NCBI GenBank assembly: GCA_024276795.1
Contig: JAJRWK010000063.1
Location: 3,800-67,799, forward strand
Length of the DNA stretch: 64,000 bases
Origin: an archaeon
Lineage (GTDB): Archaea; Asgardarchaeota; Heimdallarchaeia; Heimdallarchaeales; JAJRWK01
Reading direction: 5' to 3'
In this document: one piece after another, positions 4,590-26,630 of the stretch
Layout of the letters: every line of letters starts with the position of its first letter
Position numbering within the stretch: position 1 is the first letter of the stretch
The notes under the pieces: generated by a model
Told to the model about the DNA's origin: nothing
Seen by the model: only the letters and a program-made list of their open reading frames with translations
The model's database searches: none
Program-made: the position numbers and the translations under genes

Positions 4590-5621
4590 ATGAAGGCAGC
4601 TTTTTTCAGACAACATGGCGGATTGGAAGTACTCGAAGTTGGGGATTTACCATCGCCCGAGATAAGAGATAATGAGGTTCTCATAAATGTGAAGGCCGCA
4701 GCACTGAATCGACTTGATTTATTCGTGAGAAATGGTATTCCAGGACTTAGACTTGAATTTCCTCATATAGGGGGGTCAGATTTTGCTGGAATCGTTGCGG
4801 AAGTGGGTAAGAATGCGTCAATAGAGGTGGGCACTCCAGTCCTAGTGAATCCTGGATATGGATGCATGAAGTGTAGAGCTTGTGTATCCGGAGAAGAATC
4901 ACTCTGCAAGCGATTTCAGATATACGGTGAGCATTCAAAGGGAGGATTAGCAGAATTTGTAGCTGTTCGAGCAGACAAAGTATTATAGTATCCACCCGAC
5001 GTTCTCTCCGTCGAACAGGCAGCTGCCACCCCTTTGACTACTCTTACGGCTTATCGTTTGTTATACACTAAAGCCCAGGTACGTCCAGGAGAGACGGTTG
5101 TTGTTCTTGGAGCTGGAAGTGGTGTATCAACCATCATGATCCAATTGGCCAAACTTGCAGGATGTAACGTGATTGCTACTACTAGTAGTCTAGAGAAAGA
5201 AAAGCTAGCCTATGAATTAGGGGCAGATCATGTTATCAATTATGTGGAAAACCCTGATTGGGAGAAGGAAGTCTATCGTTTGACAAACAAGCAGGGAGCA
5301 GAAGTGATAGTAGATAATGTTGGCGAGGCGACTTGGGAAAAATCAATAAAAGCAGTGGCCAAGGGAGGAAGGATCGTAACTGTGGGTGCAACAACTGGCC
5401 CAATAGGGAAGACAGACATAAGATACGTTTTTTGGAAGCAGATCAGCATCATTGGGTCAACAATGAGTAACCAAAGAGAATTCTTAGATGCAATGAAGCT
5501 TGTTTATGAGGGAAAAATCAGGCCGGTCATTGCGAAAGTGTTCGATCTGGAGGAAATCAAACAAGCATATGAGTACTTGGAAACTGGTTCTCAGTTTGGA
5601 AAAGTTGTTGTTAGAATATAA
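4590..5621 (+). pseudogene. Medium-chain (zinc-type) alcohol dehydrogenase / quinone oxidoreductase interrupted by a single in-frame TAG at 4986-4988
   Basis: ORF 4590-4988 encodes the GroES-like domain with the structural-zinc Cys4 motif (CMKCRACVSGEESLC). ORF 5034-5621 encodes the Rossmann domain (VVLGAGSGVST). Both are in the same frame, separated only by one TAG. Translation continues ...ADKVL*YPPDVLSVEQAAATPLTTLTAYRL. Confidence 0.55.
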
Positions 5622-5755
5622 GGGACAGACTGAACGCTTCTCTTCCCGATAATGCCGAGGGAGAAAAAGATACGGGTACCGATAGAGAGGGGGACTTGTA
5701 GTCCTTCCTTATGCTCAAAAGAAATGCTCTTATTCTATTTATTTGAATCAGTATT

Positions 5756-6078
5756 GGCGGAGAGGACGGGCGGCGACGGGGCACATGCTCCCAGGAACGT
5801 ACTGCCACGAAGGGCACCGGTGTGGTGAAAACCACAAGTCGAGAGGCTTGCTCTGGCAACAGAAACGATACGGGCTTGCATGAGATGAAAATGATGTGGA
5901 CAACCGCTGAGACATGCAAGCGACCGGTGAAACGGGCCAACACCGGCGTGCAACCGCAAATAGGGCCTGATGACTGGCTCCGGGAAGGCCGGGTAGCGGG
6001 CATAGAGAAATGCCGCCAGGGAAACGTGAGGGGAATCCTCACTTCCCGAACAGAAGCAGGCGTACGATCCTGACCGCC
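5756..6078 (+). ncRNA. rnpB: Candidate RNase P RNA (archaeal type A-like)
   Basis: An island of ~320 nt at >60% GC in an otherwise AT-richer genome, sitting in an intergenic gap. Its termini are complementary (5' GGCGG.AGGA / 3' UCCU.ACCGCC, a P1-like stem). Internal strings resemble conserved RNase P regions: GGCAACAGAAACG, CCGGUGAAACGGG, CAACCGCAAAUAGGGCC and ACAGAAGCAGGCGUA near the 3' end. The ORFs at 5611-6073 on both strands are almost certainly artefacts of this RNA. Confidence 0.5.
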
Positions 6079-6094: not shown

Positions 6095-6670
6095 GTGAGA
6101 GTCAGAAAGATGAACGAGGAATCAGAAAGCAGTTTTGCTGATGTTAGAATTCCCGTCATCGTTGCTTATTTCAACCAATGTGATCCTAAGAAATGCTCGG
6201 GATTGCGAATGATCAGGCTTGGGCAAGCCAGAAGAATTGACACTCTCAAAGAGATTCCGCATCACGCTATTGTTCTGAACCCTTTCTCAGAAAAGGCTTT
6301 GTCATCAGAGGATAGAGCTCGAGCGGAAAAAAACGGGCTTGTCATAATTGATGGGTCATGGAACTCCTTAGAAGGCCATCGATCTTTGTTTAAGCGCGGG
6401 ATAGGACGAGCGTTACCATTTCTAGTGGCTGCAAATCCGGTAAATTATGGTGTTCCTACAAAGTTGTCTAGTAGTGAGGCAGTGATAGCATCCTTGTGGA
6501 TTCTTGGATTCAAGGGTCAAGCACTAGAAATCGCTGATTCTGTGAAATGGGGGCCAGCATTTCTACATATAAACATGGAAAGGCTGGAAAGTTATGCGAA
6601 TGCTAGATCAAGCAAAGAAGTAGTTGAAGCTCAGCTCAAAGCGATGAGAAAATTAGGATATGATGTTTGA
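6095..6670 (+). CDS. tsr3: Tsr3 / DUF367 16S rRNA aminocarboxypropyl (acp3U) transferase
   Basis: Family-typical N-terminal motif CDPKKCSGLRMIRLG and a size of ~190 aa. Confidence 0.6.
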   Translation: MRVRKMNEESESSFADVRIPVIVAYFNQCDPKKCSGLRMIRLGQARRIDTLKEIPHHAIVLNPFSEKALSSEDRARAEKNGLVIIDGSWNSLEGHRSLFKRGIGRALPFLVAANPVNYGVPTKLSSSEAVIASLWILGFKGQALEIADSVKWGPAFLHINMERLESYANARSSKEVVEAQLKAMRKLGYDV

Positions 6671-6700: not shown

Positions 6701-8455
6701 ATGAAGAAGAAAAAAACGGTTTCATGTTTTGTGTTTGATCTTTTCCTAAACATCTATGAATGCTTGCTCAAACTCTTGCTTGTGGCAGGTGTATCTTCAA
6801 CGAAACAACTTAATCCGAACATCATTTATGATAATGCACTTCATGGCGATCAAGCCGCACTGGAACGCGCTGAATCTTTATGGGGGGAAATCCACAGAAC
6901 GATTCATTCGGTTGTCAGTCGGTTCGAGAAGAAAGGCATTATTCCTCGTCAAGATCAAGATGCGATCTCTCGAGTTGAAGAATTGCAAAAGATACTTATG
7001 TCTTATCACAAGAGAATGGGAATATTGACTCCAAAGACAATAGAGAACATTGAATACCTGACTAATGGGTCAATTATGTCCGGCCAGCAACCGGTAATGA
7101 TGGGAGGTCCTGGCTTCATTGGAAACAAGCTTTCCTTACTCCATTTCTTGAGCGAACAGCTGGCATCAAAGGGCATAAAGCTTGCACCTGTCTTTCTTGT
7201 TGCAGACTACGATGGGCTCCACAAGGAATTAGTTCGAACTTACCTACCCAATCCTTTGTCAGAAAAAGCACACATCGTGGACATCTGGAATGCGCTTGAT
7301 TATCCGGAGGGAACTGCTTTTCATCGGGTAAATGCACCGGAGAAGTCTTGGCTAAACGAGACCCTTGAGGAAATCGAGAGGGTAACTCAGGAATTCAGAA
7401 CAAAAGTTAAGGGAGAAAAAAAGAAGATCCTTGCCCTTCAAGAACAGCTCATCTTTGATCTCTGGAAGCTTTCTTATGCCCCTAATGAGAAAATGCGAGA
7501 CTGGTTTACTAAGATCTGGGGATACCAGACAAATGAAATTCATGACTGGGGAATCGTTTACTTCCCGTTTGGAGAAAAAGAAATCCGGAAACTAATCGCA
7601 CCTTTTTATCTTCCATTTATCCTTGAGCACCACAAGTATGCAAAGGCCTTCCAAGAAGCAACTGAAAGACTAGAGAGTTTAGGATATAAGCCATCGCTGA
7701 GAAAAAGAGATGATCATTCTGCTCCGTTCTTTTTCGAGTGCCCTCATGATGGAATAAGGGTCGACCCAAAACTAGAACATCGAGAAGACGATAACACCAT
7801 CTCTGTCATTGCTGAGTGCCAACACTGTGGTGAAGTATTTGGCTTCACAGGGGCTCCTTCTCCGGACGGGCTGGTTACACATGCTTCGTCTCTCAATGCA
7901 AGAGTTGACTCTGCATCTGCAGTAGTTCAAGAAATATTGAACCCACAAGTTCGAATTAGCGGTCCTGGAGAGCTGGCCTACTACGCACAAGTGCGGTACG
8001 CTACAATAGCTGTGGGGTTTAGAGCGCCAATATTTGTTAAGTACAAAAGAGCATTCTACAATGCTCCCTGGATAGAAAGCCTAGGGAAACAATTAGCTAA
8101 AAGAGGCCTAAAAGTTCTGCATACTCCCGAGTTTTTCAAGCTCCTATCAAAGTGGGTGAAGGCTAAGAAAAATGAACACGCAGATGAAGTTCTTAACGCT
8201 GAAATTCAGATTGCCAAGTTTATTCAAGAGGTGTACGACGAATTAAGAAACAATCGCCAGAAAAAAGATATCTCCAAGTATCTGTCGTGGCAGTTTGGTT
8301 CTTTCAACCCTACAAAATTCGGTCAGGAGGTTTCATGGCTCTGGTTTGATATGGCCAGAATAACCGGTTTGTGGGACTACTTGACGACATATGAACGGAT
8401 GTACACACCATACTCGTCTTTCGGAGTAATGACCTTCTTGAATACTGGGCCCTGA
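6701..8455 (+). CDS. BshC-like protein (putative cysteine-adding enzyme of bacillithiol biosynthesis, YllA family), with an inserted CxxC...CxxC zinc ribbon
   Basis: SGQQPVMMGGPGFIGNKLSLLHFLSEQLASKGIKLAPVFLVADYDGLH matches the BshC N-terminal signature (GGQQ-G-L-GP-Y...K..S-I...P-V-F-W-VAGEDHD) as I recall it. It lies next to bshA-like and LmbE-like genes. The true start may be downstream of 6701. Confidence 0.5.
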   Translation: MKKKKTVSCFVFDLFLNIYECLLKLLLVAGVSSTKQLNPNIIYDNALHGDQAALERAESLWGEIHRTIHSVVSRFEKKGIIPRQDQDAISRVEELQKILMSYHKRMGILTPKTIENIEYLTNGSIMSGQQPVMMGGPGFIGNKLSLLHFLSEQLASKGIKLAPVFLVADYDGLHKELVRTYLPNPLSEKAHIVDIWNALDYPEGTAFHRVNAPEKSWLNETLEEIERVTQEFRTKVKGEKKKILALQEQLIFDLWKLSYAPNEKMRDWFTKIWGYQTNEIHDWGIVYFPFGEKEIRKLIAPFYLPFILEHHKYAKAFQEATERLESLGYKPSLRKRDDHSAPFFFECPHDGIRVDPKLEHREDDNTISVIAECQHCGEVFGFTGAPSPDGLVTHASSLNARVDSASAVVQEILNPQVRISGPGELAYYAQVRYATIAVGFRAPIFVKYKRAFYNAPWIESLGKQLAKRGLKVLHTPEFFKLLSKWVKAKKNEHADEVLNAEIQIAKFIQEVYDELRNNRQKKDISKYLSWQFGSFNPTKFGQEVSWLWFDMARITGLWDYLTTYERMYTPYSSFGVMTFLNTGP

Positions 8456-8467
8456 GGGAATTCAAGT

Positions 8468-9574
8468 TCAAGATATGCTTGCATAGAGCTTTTCGTATTT
8501 AGGAACAATGGTATTGGGCGAGAAACACTCAAGCACCCTTTTTCGACCATTCCTCCCCAATCGTTTCCGTAATGAAACATCTTCGATTAGAGTACACAAG
8601 TATTGCTGTGCCTCTTCAAGGCTGAAGTTCTCAAAGAGTAGACCTTCTCTATTATGTCTAACCACTTCCGGAACACCTCCAACGGCAGATGCCCAGACAG
8701 GGGTTTCGCTACTCATTGCTTCGGCTGCAACTAGACCGAAGCTTTCGATCTTACTGGGCACCGCTACGATATCAGCTGCAGCGAGAATTTCATTGATGTT
8801 CCTTCTAACTCCCAAGAAACGAACTTGATCCAGAATCTCGTTTTTCTTTGCGATTGTGTAACACTTTCTTCGTAGTGGGCCGTCTCCCACCATCCAGAGT
8901 TCTGTATCAGGATACTCCTTTCCTATGGTTGCGAATACCTTAACAAGAAAGGTTGGGTTCTTGACTTCTCTGAAATTACTCGCATGTGCGATTACTGTCT
9001 TTCCTTCTTTAGCGATACCGGAACTTTTCTCGGGGCTAAATAATTCAGGATCAACAAAGTTGTGAATTGTTAAAGGTGACTCGTCCAAGCAGAATACTTC
9101 TTTTGCAAGAGCAGAAAGAAAGTTTGAGACCGATGTCAATTTGTCCACAGAAAGAAGAAGTTTAGTAAGTGGCTCATTAAGGTACCAATCTTTTCCCAGT
9201 GTGTGAACATCAGATCCGTGAAGCGTGAGTGTTTGAGGGATGGAAACAAGCTGTCTCAACAGAAAAGCAGTCAGAACGTGGTGGACTCCGTAATGGTAAT
9301 GAATCACATCGGGTTGATATTTTCGAGCAATTTTTGCCAAGGAAGAAGCAAGAAGCATGGAGTAAGGAGGCCCTACATCTCTAAAAAGAGGGTAATTTCT
9401 GAGTGGAAAGGTAACAATTTTGATTCTTTCGGTAACTCCTTGCTTGAAAAACACTGGTACTTCATATGACAAGAGTGTGATTCGGTGTCCTCTGTTTGCT
9501 AATTCCCTTGCGAGGTAAGATGCAAACAAACCCGATCCGCCCACTGTGGGAAAAGCTACCATAACGACGTGCAT
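8468..9574 (-). CDS. bshA: GT4 glycosyltransferase resembling BshA (N-acetyl-alpha-D-glucosaminyl L-malate synthase)
   Basis: The N-terminus HVVMVAFPTVGGSGLFASYLARELANRGHRITLLS aligns with Bacillus BshA ([30 protein letters not shown]). Other conserved blocks follow the BshA order: HYHYGVHH, TLHGSD, SNFREVKN (compare SNFRKVKR), VGDGP and ESFGLV. Confidence 0.6.
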   Translation of the reverse strand: MHVVMVAFPTVGGSGLFASYLARELANRGHRITLLSYEVPVFFKQGVTERIKIVTFPLRNYPLFRDVGPPYSMLLASSLAKIARKYQPDVIHYHYGVHHVLTAFLLRQLVSIPQTLTLHGSDVHTLGKDWYLNEPLTKLLLSVDKLTSVSNFLSALAKEVFCLDESPLTIHNFVDPELFSPEKSSGIAKEGKTVIAHASNFREVKNPTFLVKVFATIGKEYPDTELWMVGDGPLRRKCYTIAKKNEILDQVRFLGVRRNINEILAAADIVAVPSKIESFGLVAAEAMSSETPVWASAVGGVPEVVRHNREGLLFENFSLEEAQQYLCTLIEDVSLRKRLGRNGRKRVLECFSPNTIVPKYEKLYASIS

Positions 9575-9593
9575 TTACTTCACGAGGATAAGC

Positions 9594-9609
9594 TTTAGAT
9601 ATATCTAAA
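9594..9609. promoter_or_regulatory. 16-bp perfect palindrome TTTAGATATATCTAAA centred on a TATA box
   Basis: It sits ~20-35 nt upstream of the minus-strand bshA-like start (9574), in the divergent intergenic region shared with the LmbE-like gene. It is a likely TATA box, and possibly also an operator. Confidence 0.3.
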
Positions 9610-9732
9610 ACGATTTTGGCATTCAGTAATTCATTGAAACTAATTTTTCCTAAATTAATGAAGTCGGGAATTCTTATTATGCAATAGCGCGAAACAACGA
9701 CTTGCCAGAAAAGAAAAGAGGAAGAAAGAACC

Positions 9733-10398
9733 ATGAACACAGAAATAATGACTATTTTCGCCCATCCGGATGATGAGACTTTTTCTGTAGGTGGCTTATT
9801 AGCGATCACTGCAAAATTGGGAAAAAAGGTAATAGCAGTTTCAGTCACTACGCAACCAGAGAGACGAGTAGAATTTCAGAAAGCATGCGAGATCCTTGGG
9901 ATACAGGGCATGTCTCTTCCTTATTCCTCAGTGGAGGGTTCTAACTTTGAAGAGATTACACGTGAAGTAATAGATTTGATAATAGAACATCGACCCCGAA
10001 ATATAATCACCCATACAAGTTTTGATTATCATCGAGAGCATAGACTTGTTCACGAAATAACTCTCGAAGCAACAGAATGGGCGTCTCATGTATCACAGTT
10101 TGGCGAAAAGGCACATCAAGTAGATCACCTTTACAGTGCGGAAACAGTAGTCTTGTTCCCTATTCCGCATTTGTTGATAGACATTTCCTCGGTTATTAAA
10201 ACCAAACAACAAGCAATTGAGGTTTATCAAAGTCAGGCCCATAAAGGAGGAATAGGTTTCTATGACTCGTTCCAATTTCACAGAACCAGAATGAGAGGAG
10301 CTCTTGCAGGAGTAGACCATGCAGAAGCCCTACAAGTGATTCCAATTCCAATTGTTGGTTCATTCAAACCCAAGAAGGTCTTGGATGAATTACCTTAG
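9733..10398 (+). CDS. LmbE/PIG-L family N-acetylglucosaminyl deacetylase (BshB-like)
   Basis: The N-terminal metal-binding motif IFAHPDDETFSVGG is diagnostic for PIG-L/LmbE deacetylases. The later motif HREHRLVH supplies the second His. Confidence 0.6.
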   Translation: MNTEIMTIFAHPDDETFSVGGLLAITAKLGKKVIAVSVTTQPERRVEFQKACEILGIQGMSLPYSSVEGSNFEEITREVIDLIIEHRPRNIITHTSFDYHREHRLVHEITLEATEWASHVSQFGEKAHQVDHLYSAETVVLFPIPHLLIDISSVIKTKQQAIEVYQSQAHKGGIGFYDSFQFHRTRMRGALAGVDHAEALQVIPIPIVGSFKPKKVLDELP

Positions 10399-11121
10399 CT
10401 AGTTAGCTTTCCGATTGGTTATGCTTTTTATAAATTTCAACGCGGGTTGGATTGCAAGATGGAAATCTTCGCCATGCACGGTTTCTGAAGCAGCTTTAGC
10501 AACAGATTCATGGGATGGGTTGAAAGCGACACTGAAGTCAGCCCATTTGAATAAAGAGATGTCGTTTACTGAATCACCAATTGCAATAGTGGTTACATGA
10601 GGTCTGCCGTTCATAAAAGACATTAGATTCTTGGCGATGTCGTCCTTCTCCATCGAAACATATTGTGGGCAGGGACCGACGATCCTGCCTTCATCATCCA
10701 ATATGAAGTCGTTTGCAACGAAAGCGTCTGCTCCGATTTCTTTTGCCAGACGCTCGACCAAAGCGATTAGGCCTCCTGAGATGAGTACCACGAAGGCTCC
10801 TTCTTCTTGGAGTTTTCTGATCGCAGATTTTGCACCAGGTCTTGCCCTAATATCGGAAAGGGCTTCATGTACTTCTCTGATGTGTCTTCCTTTCCAAAGT
10901 CCTACGTCTAGCTCTGCCCATTTGCCGTAGTCAATCTTGCCTTTGAAGAATAATTCCGTGTGGACTCTACCTTCATCAACAGTATTGAAAGCTTGATGTA
11001 AGTGTTCCCAGGCACTGGGACCAGAAGTGATCGTGTTGTCAACATCTATGAAGACGACGAATTTGGCATCTCGGAATGCATCAAGAGGCTTTAAGAAGTA
11101 ATAGCCATCTTTTTGAAACAT
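10399..11121 (-). CDS. HAD-superfamily phosphatase, phosphoserine phosphatase (SerB)-like
   Basis: HAD motif I (FVVFIDVDNTIT) and motif IV (GDSVNDISLF). Size and spacing are typical of subfamily IB. Confidence 0.55.
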   Translation of the reverse strand: MFQKDGYYFLKPLDAFRDAKFVVFIDVDNTITSGPSAWEHLHQAFNTVDEGRVHTELFFKGKIDYGKWAELDVGLWKGRHIREVHEALSDIRARPGAKSAIRKLQEEGAFVVLISGGLIALVERLAKEIGADAFVANDFILDDEGRIVGPCPQYVSMEKDDIAKNLMSFMNGRPHVTTIAIGDSVNDISLFKWADFSVAFNPSHESVAKAASETVHGEDFHLAIQPALKFIKSITNRKAN

Positions 11122-11130
11122 TGAGAGACT

Positions 11131-12759
11131 TCACCTTTGACGGAATTTCTCCGTTAAGAAAGAATTGACCTTGTTCTTTGCTTTCTTTGAGACTTTGATT
11201 TTTCCGTAAAGCGTGGTAAGTCCTGCGAACAACATTGCTTGGTCTTCGGGAGTACCTTCCATGATGTTTGTGCCTTGGTTTAGGATTATTTCTCGAAGGT
11301 CGTTATGCGACAGAAGCATTTCTGTGAATTGTTTGTTGAAGAGTAGCTCCAAATTCTCAACAATCGGGTTGAAACCTACTGATCCTCCGGCTGCGACAAT
11401 TCGCATTCCTTTGATTTTTTCCAAGTTATCAGGCAGATCAAATGGAGGCAGAACAGCCACTCTCCTTCCTCCGCCTTTTTTAATGACTGCTGCATAGAAG
11501 GGGATGTAAAGAGTATGTGTTGATCCACTGGCATTGGGGATCGCGTCTGCGGGTATTAAAAGTCGTTCAACATCGCTTTCTGGCAACTTCAATTGATCTA
11601 TGATTGCGTTAGCTTCAGTTTGGAATTGCTCTAACTTCTGATCAAGAGCAACGATGTAATTCTCAATTTCGAGCTCTTTTTGTCTGAGTTCTTCTTTGAA
11701 TGGTTCTAATTCGGCTTTCTTTTGATCGATGAGTGCTTGATAGTGTTCACGTTTTGATCTCTCGTCTACTCGTAAGGTGTCTTTGTTCTGCTCAGTTTTT
11801 TGCATCTCGTAACGGATCTGGTGCAGAGTAGAGTTCACAGTGGTTCGGAAGATATCTGTAACTTCTGCCAGAGAATTAAACTCTCGTTCTAATGCTATAA
11901 AGTCTTTATCAGGATCGCTAACTTTCTTTGCTAATTCAAGAGCCTTCTTGAGTTGACTGGAGACTTCTTGGAGATCACGGTTGAGGTTAGGCGCGAATCG
12001 GGCATAAATGTCTTTTAGAGATTGCTTGTTTTCCTTGTCGATTTGATCTTTGAGATCTTTGAGCTCTTTCTCTAATTGGGTCATATATTGTCTTTCTTGG
12101 TCAGCAATCTCTTTTTCTTTGTCTTTTATTTGCTTCTGATTTTCTTGCTTAAGCTTTTGTAACGCCTGCTGAGCGTCTTTTTTCTCTCTAGAAAATTCGT
12201 CAAGGACAACTTGCACGATCGCCTGAACTCCTTCTTTGAACCGTTGATGATTTTCGACTCCCTTCTTGATCTGAGCGGCCGCTTTTTCGATGTCAGACTT
12301 CTCAATAACTGTTGGGAGGGTGACCGCATCTGAGGAGTTTTCCAGATAGCCCAATGCGCTTCTGATTGCCCTTACTTCAGGAGGACTCAAGACTCCTTGA
12401 ATCTCAATCGGGGCAGATACGGGTTGACGTATTTTTTTCAAGATATTATCAACTTGTTGCAGAGAATCGTCTCCACCAAGCATGGTCTTGATTTCTTCTC
12501 TGCTTGGTAGCTGGGTACTCATAAATGCTGCTCTGGAAATTCCGAATCCATGAAATGGAGAGTAAGCTTCCGGGGAAATTTTTTGTAGAACAACCGGAAA
12601 TGCTAACTTCACGAGTCTTTCGAGCTCTGCATCTCCCCTGAATCCTCCTTTCTTGACTTCGTCCGCGAAGAAGAGAATCGCAGCAGTTCGCTCGATTCTG
12701 GGGAGGTCATCGAAAGGAACTTGAGTTTTCATTTGTTTGATAAATGATCTGTTCGCCAT
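11131..12759 (-). CDS. Large coiled-coil protein (hypothetical), co-oriented with the MacB-like ABC transporter
   Basis: 542 aa. The central ~250 aa are heptad-rich (QKLKQENQKQIKDKEKEIADQERQYMTQLEKELKDLKDQI). The N- and C-terminal globular parts carry no recognisable motifs. Confidence 0.35.
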   Translation of the reverse strand: MANRSFIKQMKTQVPFDDLPRIERTAAILFFADEVKKGGFRGDAELERLVKLAFPVVLQKISPEAYSPFHGFGISRAAFMSTQLPSREEIKTMLGGDDSLQQVDNILKKIRQPVSAPIEIQGVLSPPEVRAIRSALGYLENSSDAVTLPTVIEKSDIEKAAAQIKKGVENHQRFKEGVQAIVQVVLDEFSREKKDAQQALQKLKQENQKQIKDKEKEIADQERQYMTQLEKELKDLKDQIDKENKQSLKDIYARFAPNLNRDLQEVSSQLKKALELAKKVSDPDKDFIALEREFNSLAEVTDIFRTTVNSTLHQIRYEMQKTEQNKDTLRVDERSKREHYQALIDQKKAELEPFKEELRQKELEIENYIVALDQKLEQFQTEANAIIDQLKLPESDVERLLIPADAIPNASGSTHTLYIPFYAAVIKKGGGRRVAVLPPFDLPDNLEKIKGMRIVAAGGSVGFNPIVENLELLFNKQFTEMLLSHNDLREIILNQGTNIMEGTPEDQAMLFAGLTTLYGKIKVSKKAKNKVNSFLTEKFRQR

Positions 12760-14750: not shown

Positions 14751-15974
14751 TTATCGAATATTTGGGTTTCGTTTAAGCAAACCTTCAATACGGTCTCGCA
14801 TGATTTTCGCAGGAATATCATAAAGCGTAATTTTGGCTCTCCTACCTCGCCCTTGGTCAAGATTCTTGACTGCCATGCTAATAATACCCACTTTTTCAAG
14901 AGTTGATAAGTATTGTCGAAAAGTTGCCATACTGGCTGGTTTTTCTTGTAACCGAGCGACTTGATTCATTTCTTCAACGACGAGTTGATATTCTTGATAG
15001 GCGTCCTTGATAGTAGTTTCAATAGTGTCTGGCCGGGAAAGTATTCGTGCAATAGCCAGAGACGCGTACAATTCATGAGAACGCAGATCGTAAAAGACAT
15101 CAGGGCGTAGCTCGGGATAAACTCTGTTTTTAGCTTCTCGAATGAAGTCTGCTTTGATCTCTCGGTCTCCCGTTTCATCCGCAATTCTTCCAGCGCGAAG
15201 CATTATTTCGATCCCATGTCTTGCATTTCTTGTACTAGCAGAAATCTCTGCAACCATTTCAAGAATTTGGTCTGAAATTACGCCTTCCCAGAAAGCTAGT
15301 TTTGCTCGATATTTGAAAATATCAAATAATTCGTCCTTGTTGTATCCGTCTATGTCTATTTGATCCAGAATATGACCGCTTAGAGGGGCGTTGAGTAGCG
15401 CTCTCCATTCAGCAGTCCTTGAAATAATCACAGTGCTAATTCTAGATTGGCCAGATCCAAACACTTCATTCGCGTGTATGATGCTCAAAATATCTTCCGC
15501 TCTAAGCATGTTAGCCTCATCAATACCGATGACGAGGCGTAAATCCTCTTTTTCACAACGTTTGACAATCATTTCGAGAATCTCTTCTTCCCCAAAGCCA
15601 CGGCTCTGCACTCCGAATTTTTCAGTCAGGACATGTCTCAAAATACTAGCTTTGGTCCTCATAGAATGACAGTTGTAGTAAACAAAATCAAGTTTGACAT
15701 TTCTGTCTCTGCCTACTTCGACTAGATCCTCCATTGTTCTCTTTACAAGCGCGGTTTTCCCAACTCCTGGATCACCAATCACTGCCACATGGACACTTCG
15801 AGGTCGGTCACGCTTCAAGATTGAACGAAAATTCTTGGCAAGTCTCATCATTTCTCTTTCACGGTGGGGAAGCTCCCCGGGAACGAAATCCGGGAACAAC
15901 GTGGATTCATCTTTGAAAACGTCAGAATCACTAACTGCTTGCTCAACTAGTCTTTTTCTCACTTGAATTCCCAT
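14751..15974 (-). CDS. cdc6: Orc1/Cdc6 replication initiator
   Basis: AAA+ Walker A (IGDPGVGKT), Walker B (VIGIDEAN) and a C-terminal winged-helix domain. The ~400-aa length is typical of archaeal Orc1/Cdc6. Confidence 0.8.
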   Translation of the reverse strand: MGIQVRKRLVEQAVSDSDVFKDESTLFPDFVPGELPHREREMMRLAKNFRSILKRDRPRSVHVAVIGDPGVGKTALVKRTMEDLVEVGRDRNVKLDFVYYNCHSMRTKASILRHVLTEKFGVQSRGFGEEEILEMIVKRCEKEDLRLVIGIDEANMLRAEDILSIIHANEVFGSGQSRISTVIISRTAEWRALLNAPLSGHILDQIDIDGYNKDELFDIFKYRAKLAFWEGVISDQILEMVAEISASTRNARHGIEIMLRAGRIADETGDREIKADFIREAKNRVYPELRPDVFYDLRSHELYASLAIARILSRPDTIETTIKDAYQEYQLVVEEMNQVARLQEKPASMATFRQYLSTLEKVGIISMAVKNLDQGRGRRAKITLYDIPAKIMRDRIEGLLKRNPNIR

Positions 15975-25427: not shown

Positions 25428-26630
25428 ATGTCTGAAGGTCTTCAACATTATTTGTGGACTAAGAATTGTTCTTTTGGACAAACTCAAATAAGAAATAGCT
25501 TCAAGACTCAAAATCTGATAGAAATGCCAGTCGATGATGAAAAGTTCCTTCAATATCATTCACGTAACTTACCGCTTCAAATACTCGGCAAGGAGGCTTT
25601 GGAAGATTTTAGATACGAGAGAGTAACAATTGCTGGAGTGGGTGGTTTAGGCACGGTCATTGCAGAACAGCTAGCTGCTTGTGGAGTTGGAAAACTACGG
25701 TTGATCGATCAAGATTTCGTAGAACTTCATAATTTACCCCGACAAAAATTATTCTTCGAAAAGGACATAGGAAGACCAAAAGTGGAAGCGGCTAGAGAAT
25801 TCATCGAGAAAAGAAATCCCTTTGTTGAAATCGAGGCCATTCACACGCGATTAGATGAGAGTAATGCGTTTCAGTTATTAGAAGGCTCAAGTGTGGTAAT
25901 TGACGCTTTGGACAATTTTGAAACTAGAAAAATCATCAATATAGAATGCTATAAACTCGGAATTCCTTGGATCTTCGGTGGAGCACTTGTTGAAACAGGA
26001 AATGTGATGAGCATTACTTACAAGGAAAATACGCCATGTTTTCATTGTCTTTTTGAGGAGTCGACTGATGAAGGAGCTCCAACTTGTGCTACTGCTGGGG
26101 TTTATCCTCCTATTTTAGGACTGATTGCCAACATTCAAGTCGAGGAAGCAATTCGAATACTCAGACATATGAAACCGCTCTTAGAAAGCAAGCTGATGGT
26201 GATAAGTACCGCAGATCTCAGCTTTGAAAAGATTGCCGTAAAGAAACGTGAAAATTGCCCTGTATGCGGAAAAACTCCAAGAATAAGACGTGCGCGTGGG
26301 GACTCTGTCAGAGAAGAGATTCATCACCCAGTTCTTGGAGACATAACCATAACGGGAATCTGCGGTTCAGGCAATTTCATAGCACACCCTCAGCAAGAAC
26401 CAAAGTGGGACTTTGAAGCTGTCGCTCAAAAACTGCTTAACAGATGGGAAGGCAAGAGAATAGGAAAATCAGTGGTGAGATTGCTTCTCGGAGACGGAAG
26501 AAGAGTGCAAGTTGCAAAGAGCGGAGTAATGACCATCGTCGTCAATGAAACCGTGGAGGAAGCCATCGAAATTTGTCAAGAAGTGTTGTCTGTCGCAGTC
26601 CAAAGCATCGAACAAGAACGCCAAACATAG
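25428..26630 (+). CDS. E1-like ThiF/MoeB/HesA-family adenylyltransferase with a ~120-aa C-terminal extension
   Basis: Nucleotide-binding motif VTIAGVGGLGTVIAEQLAACGVGKLRLIDQD. Zinc-binding CxxC pairs (CFHC ... CPVC). The real start is probably the ATG at 25524 (MPVDDEKF). The C-terminal ~120 aa (ITITGICGSGNF...) have no signature I could assign. Confidence 0.6.
   Translation: MSEGLQHYLWTKNCSFGQTQIRNSFKTQNLIEMPVDDEKFLQYHSRNLPLQILGKEALEDFRYERVTIAGVGGLGTVIAEQLAACGVGKLRLIDQDFVELHNLPRQKLFFEKDIGRPKVEAAREFIEKRNPFVEIEAIHTRLDESNAFQLLEGSSVVIDALDNFETRKIINIECYKLGIPWIFGGALVETGNVMSITYKENTPCFHCLFEESTDEGAPTCATAGVYPPILGLIANIQVEEAIRILRHMKPLLESKLMVISTADLSFEKIAVKKRENCPVCGKTPRIRRARGDSVREEIHHPVLGDITITGICGSGNFIAHPQQEPKWDFEAVAQKLLNRWEGKRIGKSVVRLLLGDGRRVQVAKSGVMTIVVNETVEEAIEICQEVLSVAVQSIEQERQT

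What the first reader, a model, noticed from the sequence alone, without database searches (positions are those of the whole stretch)
6701..10398. Bacillithiol-type biosynthesis cluster (bshC-like, bshA-like, LmbE/bshB-like) in an archaeal genome
Three adjacent genes match the three enzymes of the Firmicutes bacillithiol (Cys-GlcN-malate) pathway. Gene 8468-9574 is a GT4 glycosyltransferase whose N-terminus and internal blocks align closely with B. subtilis BshA. Gene 9733-10398 is a PIG-L/LmbE deacetylase with the AHPDDE metal site. Gene 6701-8455 is a large protein carrying the BshC-type GQQ-x-M-GGPG-x-x-x-K signature plus an inserted CxxC zinc ribbon. The genomic context is unambiguously archaeal (Orc1, LonB, DnaG, Tsr3). 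LmbE and GT4 are individually common in archaea. What makes this notable is the combination with a BshC/YllA-family protein, as a convergent/divergent trio with a palindromic TATA-centred promoter between bshA and bshB. An archaeon making a bacillithiol-like thiol, or a variant with a different acceptor acid, would be unusual, and the cluster probably arrived horizontally. A SerB-like HAD phosphatase sits immediately downstream (10399-11121).
Basis: partly seen in the sequence, partly recalled or inferred. Interest (0 to 1): 0.75.

Follow-up and report, generated by a model that had tools for sequence, protein, structure and literature searches.

The report
Asgard archaeal bacillithiol-like gene cluster
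A Heimdall-group (Asgard) archaeon carries the three-gene set that bacteria use to make the protective thiol bacillithiol; the cluster is real and conserved across Asgard and Bathyarchaeota, but it was already noted in the literature and in database annotation, and its cysteine-adding enzyme belongs to a distinct archaeal, zinc-ribbon-bearing branch of the family.

Summary
Three adjacent genes encode a BshC-like protein (6701-8455, likely start 6782), a BshA (8468-9574, minus) and an LmbE/PIG-L deacetylase (9733-10398). BshA passes NCBI's BshA equivalog model (292 bits, cut-off 273.7). The BshC-like protein passes Pfam PF10079 but not the BshC equivalog (77 vs 265.8). The deacetylase passes PIG-L but not BshB1 (68 vs 182.5). 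The trio is syntenic in 20 archaeal loci (Heimdall, Kari, Hod, Thor, Loki/Prometh, Bathyarchaeota). So this is an old archaeal cluster, not a recent import or a curiosity of this genome. The BshC-like protein belongs to a branch named only in archaea so far. That branch keeps canonical BshC's invariant residues and fold (best PDB match 4WBD). It adds a conserved zinc ribbon that bacterial BshC lacks. The most likely product is bacillithiol or a close Cys-GlcN-acid analogue. Novelty is limited: a 2020 review reported BshA/BshC homologues mostly in Asgard, and NCBI/JGI already name these proteins. The thiol has never been detected in archaea. The palindromic "promoter" is at chance level and not conserved. 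The HAD phosphatase link is weak.

The parts
6701..8455 (+). BshC-like putative cysteine-adding ligase of the archaeal 'G1' branch of PF10079. The ORF is 584 aa. The probable true start is GTG at 6782, giving 557 aa.
   Evidence: PF10079 60.8 bits (cut-off 27), but TIGR03998 only 77.3 bits (cut-off 265.8). The AF2 model (pLDDT 72.9, pTM 0.79) matches PDB 4WBD BshC best: E 4e-16, TM 0.54-0.58. hhalign against canonical BshC gives probability 100%, E 1e-40. The N-terminal extension is not shared by homologues and the ATG is not conserved in L001.
7082..7129 (+). GQQPVMMGGPGFIGNK motif (residues 128-143), at the first strand-loop-helix of the Rossmann fold. It is the counterpart of GQQAGLLTGPLYTIYK in bacterial BshC.
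   Evidence: Q and K are invariant in both the archaeal (A2) and canonical (A3) alignments and are aligned by hhalign.
7739..7828 (+). Zinc-ribbon segment C347-x-x-D350 ... C373-x-x-C376 inside a beta-rich subdomain (strands 343-384).
   Evidence: C347, C373 and C376 are invariant in 9 close homologues. C347 and C373 are invariant, and C376 at least 90% conserved, across 31 G1 proteins. The pattern is Cx2-4C...CxxC in Bathy/Loki/Thor/Hod members and CxxD...CxxC in the Heimdall subgroup. It is absent from canonical BshC and from 4WBD. Metal binding is inferred, not shown.
8468..9574 (-). BshA: GT4 UDP-GlcNAc:L-malate N-acetylglucosaminyltransferase.
   Evidence: TIGR03999 292 bits over the full length, above the 273.7 cut-off. 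Best PDB relatives are BshA structures 2JJM/3MBO/5D00/6N1X. All positions at least 85% conserved in 122 BshA sequences are kept except a few clade-specific ones (HYAIPH to HYGVHH, R206N). The kept positions include GGSG, H92/H94/Y95/H99, TLHGxD, NF, SNFRxVK, E277, E285 and GGxPE.
9575..9732 (.). Divergent bshA/bshB intergenic region, the presumed promoter region. It contains the perfect palindrome TTTAGATATATCTAAA at 9594-9609, 20 nt upstream of the bshA ATG.
   Evidence: Sequence read. The divergent PIG-L/BshA arrangement is conserved in Asgard and Bathyarchaeota loci. The palindrome itself is expected by chance (1 found, 1.19 expected) and is not conserved. Promoter function was not tested.
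9733..10398 (+). LmbE/PIG-L family metallo-deacetylase, the functional counterpart of BshB (GlcNAc-malate to GlcN-malate).
   Evidence: PF02585 68.5 bits. The best NCBIfam model is BshB1 at 68 bits, below the 182.5 cut-off. Metal ligands and base H11/D13/D14/H103, and the Arg53 equivalent (R44), are kept. Bacterial RHPDH is replaced by YHREH, and DYHxEH is conserved in all 10 archaeal cluster-linked copies.
10399..11121 (-). HAD-IB phosphatase (archaeal phosphoserine-phosphatase-like), convergent with bshB. It is a possible accessory gene, with low confidence.
   Evidence: TIGR01488 HAD-IB 97.3 bits (cut-off 45). TIGR01491 137.5 bits (below 151.9). SerB 80.5 bits (below 144.15). It is adjacent to bshB in Heimdall/Kari loci L002, L005, L010 and L015, but not in Bathy, Thor, Loki or Hod loci.

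Best explanation
This is the Heimdallarchaeial copy of an old, archaea-wide three-gene pathway (Asgard plus Bathyarchaeota) for a bacillithiol-type low-molecular-weight thiol.

Step 1 (well supported by homology): BshA transfers GlcNAc from UDP-GlcNAc to L-malate, giving GlcNAc-malate.

Step 2 (inferred from family, metal site and gene linkage): the LmbE/PIG-L enzyme removes the N-acetyl group, giving GlcN-malate.

Step 3 (inferred): the BshC-like protein adds cysteine to the free amine, giving Cys-GlcN-malate. It has a class-I aminoacyl-tRNA-synthetase-like Rossmann fold. It keeps the invariant residues of bacterial BshC and adds a Cys3-Asp/Cys4 zinc ribbon.

bshA and bshB are transcribed divergently from a shared AT-rich intergenic region. 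bshC lies tail-to-tail with bshA. The product would serve as a redox buffer and detoxification thiol, as in Bacillota.
For: - BshA exceeds the curated equivalog cut-off, and so do all seven cluster-linked archaeal BshA tested, including the window's (292-407 bits against 273.7).
- The best solved relatives are the experimentally characterised BshA enzymes. Their catalytic and binding motifs are intact. The functional residues named for S. aureus BshA (H118, T120, N171, K209, E280, E288; PMC10361700) are present, with T120 as Ser.
- The 584-aa protein hits only the BshC family by sequence, by profile-profile comparison and by fold.
- It keeps the residues that are invariant in canonical BshC: Q, K, D, E, R, GPGE..Y and QE.
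- The LmbE enzyme keeps the HxDD...H metal and base site and the Arg53 equivalent.
- The three genes are adjacent or within a few kb in 16 genome loci and 4 further Asgard loci. These span proteins only 30-45% identical. This is the same co-occurrence logic by which bshC was first discovered (PMC5790435).
- NCBI and JGI independently name these proteins BshA and BshC.
Against: - The BshC-like protein scores 77 bits against a 265.8 cut-off, and the deacetylase 68 against 182.5. Both are separate subfamilies.
- The archaeal branch (G1) is as close by profile to an uncharacterised 'HQPN' family (G2; E 7e-49) as to canonical BshC (E 1e-40).
- In the deacetylase, the residue docked against the malate moiety (Arg109) is Tyr, and Asp112 is Glu.
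- The window's BshA is the most divergent of the set. It sits only 18 bits above the cut-off and has substitutions in the otherwise conserved HYAIPH loop.
- Bacillithiol has never been detected in any archaeon (PMC7278568).
- The BshC reaction has never been reconstituted even for Bacillus, and the cysteine donor is unknown (PMC5790435).
- No bacilliredoxin, Bdr/YpdA or Bst-type protein was seen among the 36 window ORFs scanned.
Confidence: 0.6

Rival explanations
1. The scaffold is the same but the molecule differs. The cluster makes a bacillithiol-like compound with a different aglycone acid (for example glycerate, made from a phosphorylated acceptor and then dephosphorylated by the adjacent HAD enzyme, as in mycothiol or mannosylglycerate synthesis). 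Alternatively, the BshC-like ligase attaches a different or further modified aminoacyl group.
For: - BshC-like and BshB-like proteins are distinct subfamilies below the equivalog cut-offs.
- The malate-facing Arg109 of BshB is Tyr in all archaeal copies.
- The Heimdall BshA has clade-specific changes (HYGVHH, R206N) near conserved N-domain motifs and is barely above cut-off.
- A HAD-IB phosphatase abuts bshB in five Heimdall/Kari loci, counting the window.
Against: - BshA still passes the malate-synthase equivalog. Bathy, Thor and Hod copies pass it by more than 100 bits while pairing with the same G1 BshC-like and DYHxEH deacetylase types.
- The HAD gene is absent from Bathy, Thor, Loki and Hod clusters and is convergently transcribed.
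- The unrelated Tsr3 gene is just as syntenic in Heimdall genomes, so adjacency there is weak evidence.
Confidence: 0.2
2. This is not a thiol pathway. The trio makes a GlcN-malate-derived metabolite (a compatible solute, or a cell-surface or cofactor precursor). The PF10079 protein would then catalyse a different ligation.
For: - No biochemical activity is known for any PF10079 protein (PMC5790435).
- The related G2 family sits next to PIG-L with an ATP-grasp enzyme or a DUF3492-GT4 in Thaumarchaeota-type soil contigs. This shows the superfamily is used in other amino-sugar pathways.
- No thiol-dependent enzymes were found in the window.
Against: - G1 keeps the full set of residues invariant in canonical BshC, including GPGE..Y, which G2 has lost.
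- B. subtilis bshC mutants lack bacillithiol and accumulate GlcN-malate (PMC5790435). The homologous step after BshA and BshB is therefore cysteine addition.
Confidence: 0.12
3. The cluster is a recent horizontal import from a bacterium of Firmicutes type into this genome.
For: Bacillithiol is otherwise a bacterial trait. BshA is about as similar to bacterial BshA (31-38%) as to BshA of other Asgard lineages.
Against: - GC content is 0.42-0.44 across the cluster against 0.38-0.44 in the window.
- The same Tsr3-bshC-bshA-bshB order occurs in Heimdall genomes with only 39-55% protein identity.
- All named members of the G1 BshC branch are archaeal.
- In a rough NJ tree, the Heimdall BshA sequences form their own deep clade.
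Confidence: 0.05

Closest known systems
Bacillithiol biosynthesis BshA/BshB/BshC of Bacillus subtilis, B. anthracis and Staphylococcus aureus
   Same: The three enzyme families occur in the same logical order. BshA is a true family member (equivalog passed, 31% identity to B. subtilis BshA). The BshC-like protein has the same fold as 4WBD and the same invariant residues. The deacetylase has the same HxDD...H zinc site.
   Different: - The BshC-like protein is a separate branch whose named members are all archaeal. It has 16% identity to 4WBD in the structural alignment and scores 77 against 265.8 bits.
- It has a conserved zinc ribbon where Bacillus has a Cys-free hairpin, and a C-terminal region that was not aligned in the profile comparison.
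- The deacetylase has YHREH instead of RHPDH and lacks an 8-residue loop.
- All three genes are clustered here, whereas in B. subtilis bshC is apart from bshA-bshB1.
- The host is an archaeon, and no thiol has been detected.
Mycothiol biosynthesis MshA/MshA2/MshB/MshC/MshD of Actinomycetota
   Same: The logic is GT4 glycosyltransferase, then LmbE deacetylase, then cysteine ligase of class-I synthetase ancestry. A phosphatase step (MshA2) exists there, which is why the HAD neighbour was considered.
   Different: MshA, MshB and Mca models score far lower (78, 32 and 31 bits). MshC is a CysRS paralogue, not PF10079. No MshD-type acetyltransferase is adjacent.
Asgard/Bathyarchaeota 'BshA' and 'BshC' annotations (Rawat & Maupin-Furlow 2020, PMC7278568; NCBI and JGI names; Heimdall LC_2 'putative cysteine ligase BshC')
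   Same: This window is one more genome of exactly that set. Its BshC-like protein is 39-45% identical to named Heimdall and Kariarchaeaceae proteins.
   Different: The earlier report was an InterPro hit count. It did not describe the conserved three-gene cluster, the LmbE partner, the subfamily split or the zinc ribbon. A 2025 RefSeq BLAST survey found no archaeal pathway (PMC12719100).
Uncharacterised 'HQPN' PF10079-related family (G2; e.g. Nitrososphaeraceae NOJ29969.1, Longilinea arvoryzae WP_152031698.1)
   Same: It shares the Rossmann core and a zinc ribbon at the same position. hhalign gives probability 100%, E 7e-49. It is often next to a PIG-L deacetylase.
   Different: It has HQPNLF instead of GQQP..GGPG, and the GPGE motif is degraded to GxGG. 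Its partners are an ATP-grasp enzyme or a DUF3492-GT4, not BshA. It does not reach the Pfam threshold (25.8 against 27).
Class I aminoacyl-tRNA synthetases (LysRS-I 1IRX, GluRS, MetRS)
   Same: These are the next-best structural matches after BshC. Several carry zinc-binding knuckles in the connective-peptide insertion (my background knowledge). This is the same topological region as the ribbon here.
   Different: There are no HIGH/KMSKS signatures and no anticodon-binding domain match. TM-scores are only about 0.3.

Membership tests
[quoted passage not shown] | Full-length score at or above the curated equivalog cut-off (273.7 bits) | tested here: met
   292 bits, residues 1-367 on model positions 1-373. 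Cluster-linked copies in six other archaeal loci score 303-407 bits.
[quoted passage not shown] | Conserved catalytic and substrate residues (S. aureus H118, T120, N171, K209, E280, E288; GGSG loop) | tested here: met
   TLHGSD (Thr to Ser), N172-F, SNFRxVK205, E277, E285 and GGSG are all present. Clade-specific changes are HYAIPH to HYGVHH and R206N.
[quoted passage not shown] | Uses L-malate as acceptor and UDP-GlcNAc as donor | not testable with these tools
   Needs an enzyme assay. The papers listing the malate-contacting residues were not available.
BshC (TIGR03998, cysteine-adding enzyme) | Score at or above the curated equivalog cut-off (265.8 bits) | tested here: not met
   77.3 bits, covering only model positions 42-281. 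Other archaeal G1 proteins score 19-85 bits, while canonical bacterial representatives score 477-539.
BshC superfamily (Pfam PF10079, Rossmann-like BshC N-terminal domain) | Score at or above the gathering threshold (27 bits) | tested here: met
   60.8 bits.
BshC superfamily (Pfam PF10079, Rossmann-like BshC N-terminal domain) | Fold of B. subtilis BshC (4WBD) | tested here: met
   4WBD is the top Foldseek hit: E 4e-16, probability 1.00, TM 0.54/0.58 over 557 columns. The model has moderate confidence (pLDDT 72.9).
BshC superfamily (Pfam PF10079, Rossmann-like BshC N-terminal domain) | Residues invariant in canonical BshC (GQQ, K, D..E, R, GPGE..Y, QE) | tested here: met
   These residues are invariant or nearly so in both alignments. 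All but QE are aligned to each other by hhalign. QE lies beyond the hhalign range and is aligned only by MAFFT.
BshC (TIGR03998, cysteine-adding enzyme) | Required for bacillithiol formation (adds Cys to GlcN-malate) | not testable with these tools
   Genetic evidence exists only for Bacillus and Staphylococcus. The reaction has never been reconstituted (PMC5790435).
BshB1 (TIGR04001) / BshB2 (TIGR04000) deacetylase | Score at or above the curated cut-off (182.5 / 195.25 bits) | tested here: not met
   68 and 54.9 bits. Thor and Hod cluster-linked copies score 79 and 97.5 bits.
LmbE/PIG-L superfamily (PF02585) | HxDD + H metal-binding and general-base motif | tested here: met
   H11, D13, D14 and H103 align with His12, Asp14, Asp15 and His113 of BC1534. 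PF02585 scores 68.5 bits.
BshB1 (TIGR04001) / BshB2 (TIGR04000) deacetylase | Substrate-contact residues proposed for GlcNAc-malate (Arg53, Arg109) and Asp112 | tested here: inconclusive
   Arg53 is kept (R44). Arg109 is Tyr and Asp112 is Glu (YHREH against RHPDH), consistently in 10 archaeal copies. The bacterial assignments come from docking only.
Bacillithiol system as a whole | Co-occurrence and co-localisation of the three biosynthetic genes across genomes | tested here: met
   Of the 16 genome loci, 9 carry all three genes and the other 7 carry BshA plus the BshC-like gene. Hod, Prometh, Thor and Loki loci carry PIG-L, BshA and PF10079 side by side.
Bacillithiol system as a whole | Presence of bacillithiol-dependent enzymes (bacilliredoxins, Bdr/YpdA, Bst/FosB) | tested here: inconclusive
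   None was found among 36 window ORFs scanned with Pfam. The rest of the genome is not available. The Hod neighbour with a Pyr_redox domain is TrxR-like, not YpdA.
Bacillithiol system as a whole | The thiol itself is detectable in cells | not testable with these tools
   Never detected in archaea according to PMC7278568.
SerB phosphoserine phosphatase (TIGR00338) / archaeal PSP-like (TIGR01491) | Score at or above the curated cut-off (144.15 / 151.9 bits) | tested here: not met
   80.5 and 137.5 bits. Only the broad HAD-IB subfamily model is passed (97.3 against 45).

The most novel reading that the evidence does not exclude
Asgard and Bathyarchaeota would use their own ancient lineage of the BshC superfamily. 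This lineage keeps an ancestral, aminoacyl-tRNA-synthetase-like zinc ribbon that bacterial BshC lost. Paired with a private LmbE subtype (DYHxEH), it would make a thiol that is not identical to bacillithiol (a different aglycone or aminoacyl part). The sister 'HQPN' family next to PIG-L in soil Thaumarchaeota would then mark a third, undescribed amino-sugar conjugate pathway. The superfamily and this kind of thiol chemistry could be archaeal in origin rather than imported from bacteria.
Probability: 0.2. Interest if true: 0.65.

Novelty: new member of a known kind. Interest (0 to 1): 0.4.

Why it matters
[quoted passage not shown] This cluster is the best genomic candidate, and it is now shown to be a conserved three-gene unit across Asgard lineages and Bathyarchaeota. 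That makes the question directly testable, by thiol profiling of cultured Asgard strains or by expressing three genes in a heterologous host.

The cysteine donor and chemistry of BshC remain unsolved even in Bacillus. A deeply divergent, zinc-ribbon-bearing orthologue gives a second, independent protein for reconstitution and structural work.

The gain is incremental. The presence of BshA/BshC homologues in Asgard genomes was already published and annotated.

Tried and rejected
1. Looking up the contig of the identical protein P0001 found nothing on record. The organism was therefore inferred from relatives (88% relative L001 is a Heimdallarchaeota MAG).
2. I tried to read the primary structural papers on BshA, BshC and BshB (PMC2943542, PMC5954418, PMC4303302, PMC6511738) to get the malate-contacting and BshC active-site residues. 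None is held. I used family-wide conservation and secondary sources instead.
3. The palindrome as a promoter or operator was rejected as evidence. It is at chance level and not conserved. The sigma-70 scanner was not used because the organism is archaeal.
4. The HAD phosphatase as a pathway member (a phospho-acceptor route like MshA/MshA2) is kept only as a low-probability rival. It is linked only within Heimdall genomes, where the unrelated Tsr3 is equally linked.
5. A bacterial donor was sought with a BshA neighbour-joining tree. The tree gives separate deep Asgard clades with bacteria between them and no donor. It is distance-based and midpoint-rooted, with no support values, so it cannot settle ancient transfer.
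6. A metagenome scan with the broad G2 alignment failed for lack of a conserved block. It was repeated with six closer sequences.
7. The profile search of the 5.8-billion-protein collection with the G1 alignment returned only 23 hits because of the word-index cap. It added little beyond the LC_2 annotation.
8. tRNA and Rfam scans of the window were run to see whether the in-frame TAG in the ADH gene could be recoded. There is no tRNA in the window.

Full report
**What is at the locus.** The ORF scan gives three genes:
- a 584-aa gene on the plus strand (6701-8455);
- a 368-aa gene on the minus strand (8468-9574);
- a 221-aa gene on the plus strand (9733-10398).

A 240-aa minus-strand gene follows (10399-11121). 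GC content over the cluster (0.42-0.44) does not differ from the rest of the window (0.38-0.44). The surroundings are archaeal housekeeping genes:
- Tsr3 (6095-6670)
- archaeal RNase P RNA (5758-6076)
- Orc1/Cdc6 (14751-15974)
- archaeal CCA-adding enzyme, Sua5, NucS, TyrRS, a DnaG-type Toprim protein and LonB

The closest relative in the genome collection is a Candidatus Heimdallarchaeota MAG. It is 88% identical for the large protein and has the same gene order.

**The glycosyltransferase is a BshA.**
- It matches NCBIfam TIGR03999 end to end at 292 bits, above the curated cut-off of 273.7. The next model scores 121 bits and MshA 78.
- Its best solved relatives are the BshA enzymes of B. anthracis, B. 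subtilis and S. aureus (E 1e-57 to 1e-49), against 1e-18 for MshA. It is 31% identical to B. subtilis BshA over 370 columns.
- I aligned it with 119 other database relatives (120 proteins, itself included) and the two Bacillus sequences. It keeps every position that is at least 85% conserved except a dozen, and those are shared by its own Heimdall subclade. The kept positions include GGSG, H92/H94/Y95/H99, TLHGxD, N172-F, SNFRxVK205, E277, E285 and GGxPE.
- These cover the residues named as functional in S. aureus BshA (PMC10361700).
- The subclade-specific changes are HYAIPH to HYGVHH and R206N. They are the only hint that acceptor specificity could have drifted.
- Cluster-linked BshA from other Heimdall, Thor, Hod and Bathyarchaeota loci score 303-407 bits.

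**The large protein is BshC-like but not a canonical BshC.**
- It passes Pfam PF10079 (60.8 against 27). It reaches only 77 bits on the BshC equivalog model, whose cut-off is 265.8.
- Its only sequence hit in the PDB is B. subtilis BshC, 4WBD, at E 1e-9.
- An AlphaFold model built from nine homologues has pLDDT 72.9 and pTM 0.79. Its top structural match is 4WBD (E 4e-16, TM 0.54-0.58, 16% identity). Class I lysyl- and glutamyl-tRNA synthetases follow.

**The BshC superfamily splits into three groups.** A profile search of 1.84 billion representatives found 735 relatives, but only 54 below E 1e-30. Aligning the full-length hits shows the split:
- G1, the window type. It has G[QH]QP..GG...NK, a zinc ribbon, (S/G)GPGE..Y and KFGQEVSW.
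- G3, canonical bacterial BshC. It has GQQAGLLTGPLYTIYK and GPGEIAYW and no cysteines at the ribbon position. It scores 477-539 bits on TIGR03998.
- G2, an unannotated family with HQPNLF and a ribbon. It scores 0-21 bits on TIGR03998.

hhalign relates G1 to G3 at probability 100%, E 1e-40 over 435 columns. It relates G1 to G2 at E 7e-49 over 393 columns. The residues invariant in canonical BshC are invariant or nearly so in G1. These are the second Q of GQQ, the motif lysine, a D..E pair, an arginine, GPGE..Y and a C-terminal QE. G2 has lost the GPGE glutamate. G1 therefore probably does the same chemistry as BshC.

Every G1 protein that carries a source name is archaeal: Heimdallarchaeota including LC_2, Kariarchaeaceae, Hodarchaeales, Thorarchaeota, Promethearchaeota, Ca. 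Harpocratesius and Bathyarchaeota.

**The zinc ribbon.**
- C347, C373 and C376 are invariant in the nine close homologues. C347 and C373 are invariant, and C376 at least 90% conserved, across 31 G1 proteins.
- Bathy, Loki, Thor and Hod members have Cx2-4C...CxxC. The Heimdall subgroup has CxxD...CxxC, and the window has C-P-H-D.
- The segment lies in a beta-rich subdomain (strands 343-384, pLDDT about 80). It aligns with a Cys-free hairpin of B. subtilis BshC that is about 12 residues shorter.
- It is therefore a metal-bearing version of an existing element, not a foreign insert.
- G1 and G2 both have it, and class I synthetases often carry zinc knuckles in this connective-peptide region (my background knowledge). 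Loss in bacterial BshC is the simpler reading, but I did not test it phylogenetically.
- Metal binding itself is inferred.

**Gene start.** Homologues begin 5-10 residues before the conserved NPN motif. The window ORF has about 27 extra residues. The ATG at 6701 and the sequence after it are not conserved in the 88% relative, whereas the stretch just upstream of GTG 6782 is. I take 6782 as the probable start.

**The deacetylase.**
- It is a PIG-L/LmbE protein (68.5 bits). Its best NCBIfam model is BshB1, but at 68 bits against a cut-off of 182.5.
- Against B. cereus BC1534 (2IXD), the metal ligands and base (His12, Asp14, Asp15, His113) and Arg53 are conserved (H11, D13, D14, H103, R44).
- Arg109 is Tyr and Asp112 is Glu, so RHPDH becomes YHREH. 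An 8-residue loop is missing.
- The motif DYHxEH is shared by all ten cluster-linked archaeal copies I extracted, from Heimdall, Kari and Bathyarchaeota loci.
- It is a dedicated archaeal LmbE subtype that travels with BshA.

**Synteny.** A pattern scan of one genome per species found 16 loci with a G1 protein: 12 Heimdallarchaeota (two labelled 'uncultured archaeon'), one Kariarchaeota and three Bathyarchaeota.
- tblastn with the window proteins shows BshA in all 16 loci and the LmbE gene in 9.
- The order bshC(+), bshA(-), bshB(+) seen in the window recurs in L002, L005, L009, L010, L012 (Bathyarchaeota) and L015.
- Gene tables for BshA-bearing contigs of Hodarchaeales, Promethearchaeota, Thorarchaeota and Lokiarchaeota show PIG-L(-), BshA(+) and a PF10079 protein side by side.

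The trio is thus a conserved unit over very deep divergence (30-45% identity for the BshC-like protein). In a rough neighbour-joining tree of BshA, the Heimdall sequences form their own deep clade. Thor, Loki and Hod form others, and bacterial sequences lie between them. No donor can be named.

**The HAD neighbour and the palindrome.**
- The HAD-IB protein follows bshB in L002, L005, L010 and L015, but not in Bathy, Thor, Loki or Hod clusters. Tsr3, an rRNA-modifying enzyme, is equally syntenic in Heimdall genomes. This adjacency may therefore be plain conserved gene order.
- The palindrome TTTAGATATATCTAAA (9594-9609) resembles an archaeal TATA box in both directions. It lies about 27 nt before the bshA ATG, so it would suit a leaderless bshA transcript.
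- It is the one 16-nt palindrome found where 1.19 are expected by chance. The equivalent intergenic regions of relatives have nothing similar.
- Upstream of bshB there is a purine-rich GAGGA-containing leader.

**Comparison with what is known.**
- Rawat and Maupin-Furlow (2020) reported 39 archaeal InterPro hits each for BshA and BshC, mostly Asgard. [quoted passage not shown]
- NCBI and JGI name these proteins accordingly, including 'putative cysteine ligase BshC' in Heimdall LC_2.
- A 2025 RefSeq BLAST survey found no archaeon with the full pathway (PMC12719100). That fits the divergence of the BshC-like and BshB-like proteins and the absence of MAGs from RefSeq.
- The BshC reaction has never been reconstituted and its cysteine donor is unknown (PMC5790435).

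The core claim of the finding is therefore not new. Four points I did not find described:
1. The conserved three-gene architecture.
2. The private LmbE subtype.
3. The split of the BshC superfamily.
4. The conserved zinc ribbon.

**Verdict.**
- Most likely (0.6): the cluster makes bacillithiol or something chemically very close.
- Less likely (about 0.2): a variant aglycone or aminoacyl group.
- Less likely still (about 0.1): a non-thiol product.
- Recent horizontal acquisition is unlikely.

I file it as a new member of a known, already reported but experimentally untested, kind. Interest is moderate, because it makes the identity of the Asgard thiol directly testable.

Noticed in passing
window 4590-5621 (+), stop at 4986-4988: A zinc-type alcohol dehydrogenase / quinone oxidoreductase gene is interrupted by one in-frame TAG. 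The reading frame continues unchanged after it. Relatives have sense codons there: Glu in the 88% relative L001 and Pro in L002. This is a nonsense mutation, a sequencing error or, improbably, a recoded TAG. No tRNA gene is in the window.
   Followed up: partly
window 5758-6076 (+): Archaeal RNase P RNA (RF00373, 158.9 bits, full length). The mechanical ORFs at 5611-6042(-) and 5822-6073(+) overlap it and are spurious.
   Followed up: yes
loci L017-L096 (soil metagenome contigs), e.g. L043 7239-9617 and L029 8001-11544: There is a third, unannotated branch of the BshC superfamily (the 'HQPNLF' motif, with a zinc ribbon). It is named only 'hypothetical protein' in Nitrososphaeraceae and Longilinea arvoryzae. 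In 27 of 80 loci it lies within 1-2 kb of a PIG-L deacetylase, next to a PylC-like ATP-grasp enzyme or a DUF3492-GT4. It may mark an undescribed amino-sugar conjugate pathway in soil Thaumarchaeota.
   Followed up: partly
window 6701-6781: The first 27 codons of the BshC-like ORF have no counterpart in homologues. The ATG is not conserved in L001, while about 50 nt just upstream of GTG 6782 are almost invariant between the two genomes. That stretch could be a conserved promoter or leader element.
   Followed up: partly
L099 3241-4617 and L100 3320-4693; L098 7136-7663; L097 859-1830: In Thor and Loki loci a phosphoglucosamine/phosphomannomutase-type gene lies two genes from the cluster, which could supply UDP-GlcNAc. 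In one Promethearchaeota locus a nitroreductase gene is inserted between BshA and the BshC-like gene. In the Hod locus a TrxR-like flavoprotein (not YpdA) lies 4 kb away.
   Followed up: partly
window 11131-12759 (-): A 542-aa protein with a long coiled-coil middle part and no Pfam family lies directly downstream of the HAD gene. It is 56% identical in L002, where it is also followed by the same ABC ATPase.
   Followed up: no
window 25428-26630 (+): A 400-aa ThiF/E1-like protein (PF00899, 222 bits). It is possibly part of an Asgard ubiquitin-like or sulfur-carrier system. Its neighbours were not examined.
   Followed up: no
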